From: a virus | Lineage: Duplodnaviria; Heunggongvirae; Uroviricota; Caudoviricetes | IMG/VR virus record: IMGVR_UViG_2579779052_000008 | Span: 1-42,184 of that record | Direction: 5' to 3' (one strand) | Length of the DNA: 42,184 bases | Part shown: positions 9,001-12,000 of the stretch, piece after piece | How the letters are laid out: the number at the start of each line of letters is the position of its first letter | Numbering within the stretch: position 1 is the stretch's first letter | Program-made: the position numbers

Positions 9001-12000
9001 GTAAGCCAGCGCCTGCTGCTGACCGAGTATTTTGTTGATTACCTCAATCACCGTTTCACCGTGATCAGGCTGAACATCAGGAATAACACCCGACGGCGCA
9101 CCGCTGTTCACCACCTCAATGCCGAAAGGCGCAGCAAGCGCCTGCGCAATCTGCACCAGCGAGCGTCCGTTAAACTGTGTCGGTTCGGCTGCACAGTCAA
9201 TCAGGTCAGCCGTCAGACTACGTCCGGCAATACCGGTGCTGACCGAACGGGCATCGTAACGAACGGGAGTCGCCTCCACCCAGCCGGTGATCACCAGCTC
9301 ATCACCAATCAGCACTTCCACTTTTGAACCGTTTTTAATGCGCGGCTGAAGCGTGGTGATACCCTCATCTCCCGGCCACTGGCGAGTGATCTCCACACTG
9401 AAATCCCGCGCCAGCCGTTCAATACCGGCACCGATGCGCACCGATGTCCAGCCATTCCACTCCCGGCCATTTACCCGTAGCGTGACATTGTCGTTCATTG
9501 CACTGGCACCTTCAGAGGGATCACCGGCACAAAGCCGGGATGCGTAATGGCATTACGCCGGATAATGTCCGCGTCACGCGCCGCGTTATCAAACCAGGTC
9601 GCCGCCAGCACCAGCGCGGGTAAAACCTCATCCGGTGTGCGCTGAATGATCCGTGCAGACTGTTCAAGGCGCGTGTTGATATCCGCATTCAGATCTGCTT
9701 TCACCCGGCGCAGCGCCAGAAACAGCGCATCGCTGGTTGTACGGGACAACTCCTTATCAATTGCCGTATTCAGTGTGTCGCGAATGTCAGTCAGTTCTTC
9801 CCACGTCGGCAGGTCAACCGTGTTTTTCACCGCCGGTGCATTGTTCAGTGCCGGATGCGTGACGGAAGGCCAGCCAGTGCTCTGCGCGGGTGTTGTTGCC
9901 TGCCCCACTGTGGCATTCTGCATCACCGCGGAAGTTGTTGGCGCAGGCAATCGGGTGACGGCATACGCCGCTTCGCTGATTGCGGTCGTACGAAGGGTGC
10001 TGGCAACCACGTTACGCTGCTGCGTCGCCGTGGCGGTAGTTTTACTGTCCGTTTTCCAGACGCCGCGCGGTTGCAGATCGCTGCCGAGGCTGACACCGGA
10101 AAGCGTTTTGATCATGGTGACCAGGTCGCTGGCGTTACCATAAAGGCGCTTCCCGGTACGCCACATTTTCTGCACCTGCTCAACGAAATTTTTGCCTGAC
10201 GATGGCGGCGGCAGAAGTACCGAGATATCCCCCTGCAACAGCCTGGCGGCATCCGATACGGCAGAATCCACCACTTTCATCGCATCAGAAACATACCCCA
10301 GCATTATGCTGGCATTACCGATAACGTCGTTCTGCACGAAATCCGCCACGCCATCGATACTGAAACCCCTGAAGCTATCACTGATGCAGTCATCCAGTGC
10401 AGAACAGGATGACATCAGCGTCTGCGCCGTCGCCGCACCTGAAGTGGGGTAAGAGAGTTCTCCCGCTTCGACAAACTTCAGGTCAAAGCGGACAATACGC
10501 CCTTCACTCTTCGATGTGCTGACCCGAACCTCTCCGTCAACACAGACTTTCAGCTCACCGTAAGTCGGATGGACAAGCGTGCCGGGACCGGGTTTATTCA
10601 GCGCGTCAATCAGGCGATCGCGCTGGTCAAAGCAGTCATCTCCCACCACATAAGCCGTGATGGACGGGCGGAAAGTGATTTTCCCCAGGTCTTCAGTATA
10701 GGGTTTGTCGCGGTTCGGGTATTCGTGCGTTTCCACACGACGACCGGTTCCCGCACTTTCTTCTTCAACCTTAAATGGCACGCCGCGAAACGACGCTTCA
10801 ACCAGTCTGTCTTTCCACGCCATATAAACTCCGGGCAATAATGAGTCTAAATTCTTCTATGGTCATATCATGAGTAAATGCTATAAATTATACGGCTCAC
10901 TAATTTGAGTTAGTGAACTGTGGAAAATATTCAATTAACAGGTGATAACATGAAGAAATTATTAAAATGGATTTTTTATATTTTTGTTGGGTTTATGGTT
11001 TTGGGATATTTCGCAAGTAAAAATGAACCGTCTTCATCAACAACTTCTTCAGGTAGCACGAATGCTCAGGAAACCGCACCACAAAGAGAAGTATTCAGCA
11101 CCACTGCACGCCAGCTATTTAAGGCCTATGATGAAAATGAAGTAGCAACCGACGAGAAAATGAAAGGAAAATTAATTTCCGTCAAGGGCGTTGTTCAGTC
11201 GATAGATAAAGACTTTACTGATTCAATTATTATTAGTTTCCGAACGGATAATGAATTTATGCCAGCACGTATGGAAATGGAAGATTCCGAGAAGTCTGCT
11301 GCAATCGCGCTAAAAAAAGGACAGCAAGTCACTGTCATTTGCGAAAGAATGTCTCGCATTGTAGGCGCACCATCTGGTCGGGATTGCGTATTTACGCATT
11401 AATTACCAGGGAGGGTAATTACCCTCCCATTCCAGTTCTTCCAATTCTTGTATACCCAACATCGTGAATTACATCAATTCCGGATGAACGAGTGTCGGTA
11501 ACACTCATTCCTTGTGGGGCACCTTTGAACTCAACGGTGATGGTTCCTTTCGGTTGAGTCGCCGTTCCCTGTTTGATCTGATAAGGGTTATATCCTGAAC
11601 TGGCCACGCCTGTACCATACGCACCGTAACCGCCAGCCCCCCACTGCGCAGCGTTTGCGGCAGCAACCGTATCGCTGGCACCATCAGAGAACCACTCAAT
11701 GATGGGCCTCAGCTTTTCCCACATGTCCTGGAACCATTTCACGATTGGGCCCCAGTTATTGATCACCATCCCCAGCGGCGACCAGGCAAAAACTTTCTTA
11801 AGGAGTTCCCAGCCAGCCTCAAAATAAGGACCAATGGTTTCCCAGAGTTTCTTAAAATAAGGTCCGACAACATCCCAGTTAGTGATAATTAATCCCGCAG
11901 CCAGGGCAATCGCCGTCGCAATCATGCCAATCGGCGTCATCGACATGATCCTGCTGACAATACTGATGGCACTGCCCACGCCCATCAATCCCAGCTTCAG

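What the first reader, a model, noticed from the sequence alone, without database searches (positions are those of the whole stretch)
10860..11430. Antisense moron inside the tail operon: membrane-anchored OB-fold protein with its own promoter region, bounded by a perfect 20-bp palindrome
Every gene from holin to tail fiber is on the minus strand and tightly packed, except one plus-strand AT-rich ORF wedged between the DNA-circulation and tape-measure genes. It has a strong RBS, an N-terminal signal-anchor helix, a Ser/Thr linker and an OB-fold-like domain. Its stop abuts a perfect palindrome (GGGAGGGTAATTACCCTCCC) that also covers the tape-measure stop. This layout suggests lysogen expression independent of the late operon, as for host-interaction or exclusion morons.
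Basis: partly seen in the sequence, partly recalled or inferred. Interest (0 to 1): 0.6.

Follow-up and report, generated by a model that had tools for sequence, protein, structure and literature searches.

The report
Prophage exclusion-type gene inside tail operon
A small gene inserted backwards between two tail genes of an E. coli prophage encodes a membrane-tethered, probably periplasmic OB-fold protein related to Sie2009, a dairy-phage protein that stops other phages injecting their DNA, so it is most likely a lysogen-expressed defence gene rather than a tail part.

Summary
A 150-aa ORF (10950-11402, + strand) sits alone against the minus-strand late operon of an SfV/SfII-like E. coli prophage, between the DNA-circulation and tape-measure (TMP) genes. 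It lies in a 38% GC cassette; the window is 50% GC. A perfect 20-bp palindrome (11409-11428) follows it and contains the TMP stop codon.

The protein has a basic N-terminus, one membrane helix, a disordered Ser/Thr linker and a confidently modelled OB domain (Pfam PF12869).

- **Not a tail component.** SfI, SfII and SfV lack the cassette. Only 79 of 1094 E. coli genomes with this tail module carry it. The same slot holds at least five other unrelated AT-rich cargo genes.
- **Homologue of a known exclusion protein.** It shares PHROG 8545, PF12869 and its architecture with lactococcal Sie2009 (hhalign probability 97.5%).
- **Lysogeny context elsewhere.** In P2-like prophages, homologues sit directly behind the immunity repressor.

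Best reading: a prophage-expressed inner-membrane protein with a periplasmic OB domain that blocks genome entry of superinfecting phages. Expression, topology and phenotype are inferred, not shown. It is a new, Gram-negative member of a known kind, of moderate interest.

The parts
10842..11418 (.). AT-rich inserted cassette (moron) between the DNA-circulation start/RBS and the TMP stop
   Evidence: 37.8% GC against 50.4% for the window. Absent from SfII, SfI and SfV, where TMP stop and DNA-circulation start are about 50 nt apart. The right boundary is approximate, because the TMP 3' end also varies.
10860..10887 (+). Predicted sigma-70 promoter: -35 TGGTCA (10860-10865), 16-nt spacer, extended -10 TGcTATAAA (10879-10887)
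   Evidence: ATGGTCA and TGC[T/C]ATAA[A/T] are conserved in three alleles whose synonymous sites are saturated. The consensus scan did not call it, because it requires T at -10 position 6. Inferred, not shown.
10895..10918 (+). Inverted repeat CTCACTAA-N-TTAGTGAA at the predicted 5' end of the mRNA; possible 5' stabilising hairpin or operator
   Evidence: dG -12.6 kcal/mol, z -2.3. Each of the other two alleles has a different palindrome at the same place. Weak evidence.
10940..10945 (+). Shine-Dalgarno AGGTGA
   Evidence: AGGTGAT[A/T]ACATG is conserved in all three slot alleles.
10950..11402 (+). CDS, 150 aa: Sie2009-family membrane-tethered OB-fold protein (RefSeq WP_032281336.1-like 'OB-fold protein')
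   Evidence: PF12869 E 6.8e-19. PHROG 8545 E 3e-41. dN 0.06-0.14 in the OB domain with saturated dS. RefSeq annotation.
10950..11015 (+). Residues 1-22: basic N-terminus (MKKLLKW) plus hydrophobic helix, read as an N-in signal anchor
   Evidence: AF2 helix at residues 2-22. MKKxLKW plus a hydrophobic stretch is conserved in the family. No -3/-1 small-residue signal-peptidase site is visible in the sequence.
11016..11087 (+). Residues 23-46: Ser/Thr-rich disordered tether
   Evidence: pLDDT below 50 for residues 25-42. Length and sequence vary across homologues, about 20-45 aa.
11088..11399 (+). Residues 47-150: OB-fold domain (PF12869)
11409..11428 (.). Perfect 20-bp palindrome forming an RNA hairpin (8-bp stem, AAUU loop) at the 3' end of the ORF; it contains the TMP stop codon
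   Evidence: dG -16.1 kcal/mol, z -3.7 on the + strand. The GGGAGGG/CCCTCCC stem is conserved with three different loops in three alleles. No U-run follows it in this allele.
11419..13209 (-). Tail tape-measure protein gene (596 aa), convergent with the ORF; its last three codons and stop lie in the palindrome
9495..10826 (-). DNA-circulation (Mu gp43/N-like) gene, next gene of the late operon; ATG at 10826-10824
11320..11336 (-). Terminator-like hairpin followed by T7 on the late-operon strand, inside the antisense of the ORF
   Evidence: The late transcript must read through it. A Q antiterminator is encoded at 27382-27897.
27382..27897 (-). Phage antiterminator Q gene (context: makes late transcription terminator-resistant)
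   Evidence: PF06530 E 1.1e-25.

Best explanation
The ORF is a moron: an accessory gene cassette dropped into the junction between the tape-measure and DNA-circulation genes of an SfV-like temperate myovirus. It is transcribed against the late operon from its own sigma-70 promoter, so it can be made in the lysogen while the tail genes are silent.

Its product inserts into the inner membrane through an uncleaved N-terminal signal anchor. It holds an OB-fold domain in the periplasm on a flexible tether of about 25 residues.

Like its lactococcal homologue Sie2009, it most likely acts as a superinfection-exclusion protein. It would bind a component of the incoming phage's genome-delivery apparatus (tape measure or tail tip) or an inner-membrane entry factor, and block DNA entry after adsorption.

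Shown here: the insert status, the fold, the homology, purifying selection, and the lysogeny-module context of homologues. Inferred: promoter activity, topology, the anti-phage phenotype and the target.
For: 1. **Accessory insert.** The cassette is missing in SfI, SfII and SfV. It is present in 79 of 5426 E. coli genomes, against 1094 that carry the flanks. An even sample of 60 records gave 32 empty sites, 6 with the OB gene and 11 with other cargo. The other cargos fall in unrelated families: PHROG 1353, 5485, 7115/bPH_1 and 8976.
2. **Real, constrained gene.** Three slot alleles have saturated synonymous sites, but dN is only 0.06-0.14 in the OB domain.
3. **Expression signals conserved.** The -35/extended -10 block, the RBS and the 3' hairpin stem are kept in all three alleles, while the rest of the non-coding DNA diverges. 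No + strand gene lies upstream that could supply read-through.
4. **Homology to Sie2009.** Tuc2009 orf2 hits the same PHROG 8545 (1.7e-79 against 3e-41 for the window protein) and the same Pfam family PF12869 above threshold. hhalign gives probability 97.5%, E 5e-12; BLASTP gives 31% identity over 90 aa. The architecture is identical: basic N-terminus, TM helix, G/S/T linker, OB domain. Sie2009 is membrane-associated and blocks phage DNA injection (PMC7693887, PMC4737114, PMC10883804).
5. **Lysogeny context of homologues.** One lies immediately after the CI repressor in a Yersinia ruckeri P2-like prophage. One is the last gene of the immunity-repressor operon of Burkholderia phage Carl1. Of 57 IMG/VR loci, 11 lie within about 25 nt downstream of a CI-type repressor and 9 downstream of a Carl1-type repressor. 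TP712 orf2 lies between CI and INT.
6. **Exported OB domain.** There are three lysines before the helix and no net charge after it. Family variants replace the anchor with a cleavable signal peptide, a lipobox, or a zinc ribbon plus TM helix. The only solved relative is annotated as a lipoprotein. The OB domain is acidic (pI 5.4; Sie2009 4.8), unlike typical nucleic-acid-binding OB folds.
Against: - There are no transcript, localisation or phage-challenge data for this protein or for any proteobacterial homologue. No paper in the library was found that describes one.
- Homology to Sie2009 is remote, about 31-33% over about 85 residues, and crosses the Gram divide. Shared function is therefore not guaranteed.
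- The mechanism and target of Sie2009 are themselves unknown.
- The generic promoter scan did not call the proposed promoter.
- The hairpin has no U-run in this allele, so it is not a canonical terminator.
- PADLOC and NCBIfam give no hit.
- Family members also occur as single genes in chromosomal islets without phage genes: Pantoea next to copCD-yebY, and Dryocola between trpA and ompW. The family may therefore have non-defence roles.
- Some copies are decayed by IS1 insertion or N-terminal deletion.
Confidence: 0.55

Rival explanations
1. It is a lysogenic-conversion gene with an envelope function unrelated to phage. The tethered periplasmic OB domain would bind an oligosaccharide, peptidoglycan or a periplasmic protein, and alter envelope stress tolerance, colonisation or serum and antimicrobial resistance.
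For: OB folds also bind oligosaccharides and proteins. The domain is acidic. Relatives sit in chromosomal islets with no phage genes. The family is very large, with 10466 cluster representatives at E<=1e-3, and is mostly uncharacterised. PADLOC gives no hit.
Against: The only functionally characterised homologue found is an exclusion protein. The recurrent placement directly behind prophage immunity repressors is the classic position of exclusion genes.
Confidence: 0.2
2. It is an abortive-infection or regulatory protein of the AbiP / PdpSau / TcdC type. The OB domain would face the cytoplasm, bind phage or host nucleic acid at the membrane, and stop replication or transcription after DNA entry.
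Against: The positive-inside rule places the N-terminus in the cytoplasm and the domain outside. Paralogous architectures carry signal peptides or a lipobox. The pI of 5.4 is not basic. The closest solved structure is annotated as a lipoprotein. Sequence relatedness to AbiP and PdpSau was not tested.
Confidence: 0.08
3. It is a lytic-cycle accessory of the tail module, for example a tail-assembly or host-envelope helper, expressed late.
For: It sits between two tail genes and next to the tape-measure gene.
Against: It is antisense to the late operon. It is absent from most related phages, including the viable phages SfI, SfII and SfV. Homologues lie in repressor operons and in non-phage islets. 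The product has an export or anchor signal and its base composition is foreign.
Confidence: 0.04
4. The functional product is the antisense transcript or the hairpin, not the protein. Convergent transcription from the cassette would damp leaky late-operon expression in lysogens, or the palindrome would act as a processing or stability site for the late mRNA.
For: The transcript would run into the TMP 3' end. The hairpin is stable on both strands. The stem is conserved in three alleles.
Against: Strong purifying selection acts on the protein sequence. The protein family is conserved far beyond this slot. Other cargos in the same slot are co-oriented with the late operon. There is no Rfam match.
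Confidence: 0.03

Closest known systems
Sie2009 (orf2 of Lactococcus phage Tuc2009) and the lactococcal prophage Sie proteins
   Same: Both fall in PHROG 8545 and in Pfam PF12869. hhalign probability is 97.5%. The architecture is the same: basic N-terminus, single TM helix, Gly/Ser/Thr linker, acidic OB domain. Both are prophage accessory genes that are not part of the virion.
   Different: The host is Gram-positive. The gene lies in the lysogeny module between integrase and repressor, not antisense in a tail operon. Identity is only about 31% over 90 residues. Its function (block of DNA injection of 936-type phages) is shown experimentally, whereas nothing is shown for the E. coli protein.
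HK97 gp15 moron (E. coli siphovirus)
   Same: It is an E. coli prophage moron placed directly beside the tape-measure gene and has its own annotated terminator. It is reported as an inner-membrane superinfection-exclusion protein that blocks DNA entry, with escape through tail tube and TMP genes (PMC10883804).
   Different: There is no homology: hhalign probability is 1%. It is a 62-aa protein with no OB domain. It lies on the same strand as the tail genes and upstream of TMP rather than downstream.
Ltp of Streptococcus thermophilus phage TP-J34
   Same: It is a prophage-expressed exclusion protein held on the outer face of the cytoplasmic membrane by an N-terminal tether. It blocks DNA injection and its target is the TMP (PMC10883804, PMC3952083). 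One BFVD structural match to the model (A0A8S5U313, E 3.2e-7) is named 'Host cell surface-exposed lipoprotein', the name used for the Ltp family.
   Different: Ltp is a lipoprotein, not a signal-anchor protein. By my own knowledge its domain fold is a helix-turn-helix repeat rather than an OB fold; this was not tested here.
PDB 3F1Z, Klebsiella pneumoniae 'putative nucleic acid-binding lipoprotein' (PF12869)
   Different: Identity is only 15-16%. It is a structural-genomics entry with no known function, and a lipoprotein rather than a TM-anchored protein.
TcdC of Clostridioides difficile and its homologues in Lactobacillus/Leuconostoc phages
   Same: It has an N-terminal membrane anchor plus a C-terminal OB domain that matches PF12869 by HHpred. 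Phage homologues lie between CI and Int (PMC3575817), the same position as Sie2009 and the P2-like homologues found here.
   Different: It has an extra coiled-coil dimerisation region. It was proposed as an anti-sigma factor and G-quadruplex binder. It was not compared directly here.
AbiP (Lactococcus) / PdpSau (S. aureus prophages)
   Same: Both are membrane-anchored proteins with an OB-like domain, and both are prophage- or plasmid-borne anti-phage proteins (PMC10127798).
   Different: They act after DNA entry (abortive infection) with a cytoplasmic, positively charged domain. The protein here is predicted to be periplasmic and is acidic. Homology was not tested.

Membership tests
Sie2009-type superinfection-exclusion proteins (PHROG 8545) | Detectable sequence or profile homology to Sie2009 | tested here: met
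   PHROG 8545: window protein 3e-41, Sie2009 1.7e-79. hhalign of the family profile against Sie2009: probability 97.5%, E 5e-12. BLASTP: 31% identity over 90 aa.
Sie2009-type superinfection-exclusion proteins (PHROG 8545) | Small protein with a hydrophobic N-terminal membrane anchor | tested here: met
   MKKLLKW followed by a 16-residue hydrophobic stretch. AF2 helix at residues 2-22. Conserved in the family. Sie2009 is described this way in PMC7693887.
Sie2009-type superinfection-exclusion proteins (PHROG 8545) | Globular domain on the outer face of the cytoplasmic membrane | tested here: inconclusive
   The positive-inside rule and paralogues with a signal peptide or lipobox favour export. 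No topology predictor or experiment was available.
Sie2009-type superinfection-exclusion proteins (PHROG 8545) | Encoded by a prophage and expressed in the lysogen (lysogeny module) | tested here: inconclusive
   It is prophage-encoded. It is not in the lysogeny module here, but it is antisense to the late operon with a conserved promoter-like block. Homologues are in repressor operons. Expression was not measured.
Sie2009-type superinfection-exclusion proteins (PHROG 8545) | Blocks phage DNA injection without affecting adsorption | not testable with these tools
   Needs phage challenge, adsorption and DNA-entry assays.
Moron (accessory cassette in a phage operon) | Present in some genomes and absent in others between otherwise conserved neighbouring genes | tested here: met
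   SfI, SfII and SfV are empty at this site. 79 of 1094 E. coli genomes with the flanks carry the gene. Alternative cargos occupy the slot.
Moron (accessory cassette in a phage operon) | Base composition different from the surrounding genes | tested here: met
   37.8% GC against 52-57% in the flanks; GC3 0.33 against 0.56.
Moron (accessory cassette in a phage operon) | Own promoter and terminator, transcribed from the repressed prophage | tested here: inconclusive
   The extended -10 and -35 are conserved in three alleles, but the consensus scan did not call them. The hairpin is stable but lacks a U-run in this allele. Allele 2 has UUCGUCUUU after its hairpin.
Pfam PF12869 (tRNA_anti-like OB fold) | Score above the curated gathering threshold | tested here: met
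   68.3 bits against a cut-off of 23.5; residues 2-132.
Pfam PF12869 (tRNA_anti-like OB fold) | Five-stranded OB barrel | tested here: met
   The Pfam scan at E<=1 lists only PF12869 and a sub-threshold KOW hit.
HK97 gp15 family | Sequence homology to gp15 | tested here: not met
   hhalign probability 1%. gp15 is a 62-aa protein without an OB domain.
AbiP/PdpSau-type membrane-anchored Abi proteins | Cytoplasmic, positively charged nucleic-acid-binding domain | tested here: not met
   The OB domain has pI 5.4 (15 K+R, 17 D+E). Export signals are present in the family. Direct homology to AbiP and PdpSau was not tested.

The most novel reading that the evidence does not exclude
The tethered PF12869 OB fold would be a single, very widespread injection-blocking module shared by Gram-positive and Gram-negative prophages. 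It would run from Sie2009, through P2-like repressor operons, to this SfV-like tail slot, and possibly to C. difficile TcdC. It would act on a step of genome delivery at the cytoplasmic membrane that is common to siphoviruses and myoviruses. If so, this E. coli gene would be the first Gram-negative model for a mechanism that has stayed unknown since Sie2009 was described. Thousands of 'OB-fold (lipo)proteins' would then be unrecognised exclusion proteins.
Probability: 0.35. Interest if true: 0.6.

Novelty: new member of a known kind. Interest (0 to 1): 0.42.

Why it matters
Superinfection-exclusion proteins that block DNA entry are poorly understood. For Sie2009, the prototype of this family, neither the target nor the mechanism is known, and the work has been confined to lactococci.

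A homologue in E. coli prophages makes the question approachable with E. coli genetics and well-defined phage collections. These tools include entry-factor mutants, TMP swaps and proximity labelling of the kind used for the membrane-bound nuclease SNIPE (PMC13190303).

Three wider points follow:
- RefSeq's label 'OB-fold protein / putative lipoprotein' hides a likely defence function. PADLOC does not list it.
- The TMP/DNA-circulation junction of SfV-like prophages is a cargo hotspot, where at least five other unknown genes may also be lysogen-benefit or defence genes.
- No paper in the searchable library contains both 'Sie2009' and 'OB-fold'. The fold assignment may therefore be a small new point in itself.

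Tried and rejected
- **Other libraries.** NCBIfam and PADLOC gave no hit. A sequence search of the PDB with the family profile found nothing meaningful. An Rfam scan of 10500-11800 gave only a sub-threshold snoRNA match.
- **BOF family.** Not supported.
- **Scan-called promoter.** The only promoter-like site the scan found (10935-10962) overlaps the RBS and start codon, and the count was below the shuffle mean. It was rejected as the promoter.
- **TMP co-variation.** I tested whether the TMP C-terminus co-varies with the cassette, which would hint at a Sie/TMP pairing, and rejected it. The short TMP type (no 20-aa insert...GMGG end) is shared with a prophage carrying a different cargo. OB allele 2 goes with the long TMP type of empty-site phages.
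- **Palindrome and TMP stop.** The palindrome covers the TMP stop only in two of the three alleles. In allele 2 the hairpin is intergenic.
- **HK97 gp15.** Homology rejected.
- **Phage genome search.** tblastn against phage genomes found only Burkholderia and Bordetella relatives at significant E-values. The weak TP712 hit (E = 5) was confirmed only afterwards by profile searches.
- **Conserved cysteines.** Two near-invariant cysteines (C131, C146) could form a periplasmic disulfide. I could not measure their distance, and distant homologues lack one or the other, so I do not rely on this.
- **5'-UTR hairpin.** Not statistically robust.
- **Unavailable resources.** The afdb50 fold library was not available. 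The primary papers on Sie2009 (Mahony 2008) and HK97 gp15 (Cumby 2012) are not held, so their findings are cited through later open-access papers.
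Full report
**What is there**

The window is a temperate E. coli prophage. It carries an integrase at 1362-2519 and a Q antiterminator at 27382-27897. Its late operon, on the minus strand, combines an HK97-type head module with a Mu-like contractile-tail module. The closest named phages over the region of interest are the Shigella serotype-converting phages SfI, SfII, SfV and SfIV, at 92-96% identity in the flanks.

- **The ORF.** The + strand ORF runs 10950-11402 (150 aa). 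The ATG is preceded by AGGTGA, and RefSeq annotates the same start in a 99.4%-identical prophage as WP_032281336.1, 'OB-fold protein'. It is the only substantial + strand ORF between holin and tail fibre.
- **The cassette.** The region 10842-11418 is 37.8% GC, against 50.4% for the window and 52-57% for the neighbouring genes.
- **The palindrome.** GGGAGGGTAATTACCCTCCC lies at 11409-11428, six bases after the ORF stop, with the TMP stop codon at its centre. It is the only perfect palindrome of 14 bp or more in the window. As RNA it folds into an 8-bp hairpin of -16.1 kcal/mol (z -3.7).

**It is an insert, not a tail gene**

- **Empty sites.** In SfII the TMP stop and the DNA-circulation start are about 50 nt apart and hold a different small hairpin. 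SfI and SfV are the same.
- **Frequency.** Of 5426 complete E. coli genomes, 1094 carry the flanking genes but only 79 carry the OB gene. It is always at this junction and always antisense: 7 copies at 99% identity or more, and 72 copies of an allele about 73% identical.
- **Slot occupancy.** An evenly spaced sample of 60 of the 1102 matching records gave:

| Class | Records |
|---|---|
| Empty site | 32 |
| OB gene (2 of them truncated) | 6 |
| Other inserts | 11 |
| Only the DNA-circulation flank matched | 11 |

- **Other cargos.** The other inserts are unrelated AT-rich genes (31-41% GC) on the late-operon strand. They are a 225-aa PHROG 1353 protein, PHROG 5485 proteins of 166 and 79 aa, a bPH_1 domain protein (PHROG 7115), and the 170-aa PHROG 8976 protein of phage SKA5.

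The junction is therefore a cargo hotspot, and the OB gene is its only antisense occupant. The late transcript has to cross the cassette, including a hairpin plus T7 on the minus strand at 11336-11320. The phage's Q antiterminator makes that plausible by established lambdoid biology.

**The gene is real and constrained**

Three slot alleles were compared: the window, STEC388 (L004), and an IMG/VR phage (L022) with only 66-78% identical tail genes. Synonymous sites are saturated. Non-synonymous divergence is 0.06-0.14 in the OB domain and 0.22-0.32 in the anchor and linker.

Across these alleles the non-coding DNA is largely diverged, except for four blocks:
- ATGGTCA, read as the -35 (TGGTCA, 10860-10865);
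- TGC[T/C]ATAA[A/T], an extended -10 (10879-10887), 16 nt downstream;
- AGGTGAT[A/T]ACATG, the RBS and start codon;
- the GGGAGGG/CCCTCCC stem, which carries three different loops.

This footprint is my basis for an autonomous promoter. The generic scan did not call it, and in this allele the hairpin is not followed by a U-run. The terminator function is therefore only partly supported. Allele 2 has UUCGUCUUU after its hairpin.

**The protein**

- **Family.** Pfam gives PF12869 (tRNA_anti-like) at 6.8e-19.
- **Model.** AlphaFold2, run with 38 homologues, gives mean pLDDT 85: a helix at residues 2-22, a disordered linker at 25-42, and an OB barrel at 48-150 with pLDDT about 97.
- **Family-wide features.** The family alignment keeps MKKxLKW plus the hydrophobic helix, a linker of variable length, and motifs such as TTAxxLFxxYDENEVAxDExxKGK and SIDKDFTDS.
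- **Evidence for export.** Variants replace the anchor by a cleavable signal peptide (259-aa Klebsiella forms), a lipobox, or a zinc ribbon plus TM helix. Three lysines precede the helix. The domain is acidic, pI 5.4. Together these point to an N-in signal anchor with the OB domain in the periplasm.

This topology is inferred, not shown.

**What it is related to**

PHROGs places the protein in family 8545, labelled 'superinfection exclusion Sie-like' (3e-41). I traced that label to orf2 of Lactococcus phage Tuc2009, which is Sie2009.
- Sie2009 hits PHROG 8545 at 1.7e-79 and PF12869 at 43.3 bits, against a cut-off of 23.5.
- It aligns to the enterobacterial family profile with hhalign probability 97.5%, E 5e-12.
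- It shows the same layout: basic N-terminus, TM helix, Gly/Ser/Thr linker, acidic OB domain.
- TP712 orf2, which lies between CI and INT in the MG1363 prophage, is a further member.

[quoted passage not shown] It blocks DNA injection of heterologous lactococcal phages. It is thought to act on distal tail components or on the injection trigger (PMC7693887, PMC4737114, PMC10883804).

**Where homologues sit**

- **Database hits.** 90 close homologues occur across Enterobacterales. A profile search finds 10466 cluster representatives.
- **IMG/VR loci.** The 57 loci break down as follows:

| Context | Loci |
|---|---|
| Tail slot | 25 |
| About 25 nt behind a CI-type repressor, same strand | 11 |
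| Downstream of a Carl1-type repressor | 9 |
| Unclassified | 12 |

- **Individual cases.** In a Yersinia ruckeri P2-like prophage the gene sits between the repressor and integrase. In Burkholderia phage Carl1 it is the last gene of the immunity-repressor operon, followed by an annotated terminator.
- **Other contexts.** Copies also occur in small integrative elements and in chromosomal islets.

The repressor-operon position is the strongest comparative argument that the family is made in lysogens.

**Mechanism proposed**

In the lysogen, the cassette promoter makes a short mRNA that ends at the hairpin. The protein inserts in the inner membrane with its OB domain tethered in the periplasm. 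It interferes with genome delivery by incoming phages after adsorption, as Sie2009 does. I put this at about 0.55.

The main rival is another envelope-related conversion function (0.2). It is kept alive by the chromosomal copies and by the generic nature of OB folds. An AbiP/PdpSau/TcdC-like cytoplasmic nucleic-acid binder (0.08) is disfavoured by the topology signals and the charge. A tail-assembly role (0.04) and an RNA-only role (0.03) are disfavoured by distribution, orientation and purifying selection.

**Comparison and novelty**

HK97 gp15 is the nearest E. coli analogue by layout: a moron next to the TMP gene that blocks DNA entry. It is unrelated in sequence. The TMP C-terminus does not co-vary with the cassette.

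The finding is a new Gram-negative member of a known kind, in an unusual antisense position. I found no paper that describes a proteobacterial member, and no paper containing both 'Sie2009' and 'OB-fold'. Interest is moderate.

Noticed in passing
window 10826-11421 (junction); loci L002, L018, L019, L020, L021: The TMP/DNA-circulation junction of SfV-like prophages is a cargo hotspot. Besides the OB gene it holds at least five unrelated AT-rich genes of unknown function, all co-oriented with the late operon: PHROG 1353, 5485 (two sizes), 7115 (bPH_1) and 8976. At least one is followed by a classic terminator just before the DNA-circulation RBS (L018 842-866).
   Followed up: partly
L081 1339-1860 (Tuc2009 orf2); L079 2198-2824 (TP712 orf2): Sie2009 and TP712 orf2 carry a PF12869 OB-fold domain. 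TcdC of C. difficile was reported to match the same Pfam family, and its phage homologues lie between CI and Int (PMC3575817). TcdC may therefore descend from a phage exclusion protein. No paper in the library contains both 'Sie2009' and 'OB-fold'.
   Followed up: partly
window 11320-11336 (- strand) and 10895-10918 (- strand): Two terminator-like hairpins lie on the late-operon strand inside the cassette, one followed by T7. Late transcription would have to read through them, presumably by Q antitermination (Q gene at 27382-27897).
   Followed up: no
window 11422-11781 (TMP C-terminus); alignment A6: The TMP C-terminus is dimorphic among related prophages. A short form lacks a 20-aa insert (TPYPAVDPAQSNNASDATGP) and ends in ...GMGG. 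A long form has the insert. The two forms are not linked to which cargo occupies the adjacent slot.
   Followed up: yes
L005 3941-4327 (DG341-1); L006 4011-5074 (EBJ001); NZ_CP073719 (CX12): Some copies of the OB gene are decayed. One has a deletion removing the promoter, RBS and membrane anchor. Others carry IS1A insertions in or next to the gene.
   Followed up: partly
window 10895-10918; L004 about 3080-3096; L022 about 4955-4970: Each of the three slot alleles has a palindrome immediately downstream of the predicted -10 element, but with a different sequence in each. It could be a 5'-terminal mRNA hairpin or an allele-specific operator.
   Followed up: no
window 3014-3394 (-) and 3406-4518 (-): Two ORFs (126 and 370 aa) lie between the integrase and the tail-fibre genes and have no Pfam match. 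In SfV-type phages this is where serotype-conversion or other lysogenic-conversion genes sit.
   Followed up: no
window 24306-24872 (-) and 26672-27184 (-): A KilA-N/ORF11CD3 protein lies between the HNH endonuclease and the lysis genes. An HNH_3-AP2 homing-endonuclease-like gene lies between Q and the holin. Both are further accessory genes in the late region.
   Followed up: no
L017 4001-4282 (Bordetella phage vB_BaM-IFTN4): The tblastn match to the OB protein lies on the strand opposite to the annotated CDS (vBBaMIFTN4_49), downstream of the repressor gene. The deposited annotation may have the wrong strand there.
   Followed up: no
L090 4803-5222 (Erwinia sp. CGal63): In one chromosomal islet, the ORF just downstream of the OB gene resembles a membrane bacterial PH-domain protein by eye; no profile search was run on it. 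PH-domain proteins are the other cargo type seen in the E. coli tail slot. This may be coincidence or a recurrent association.
   Followed up: no
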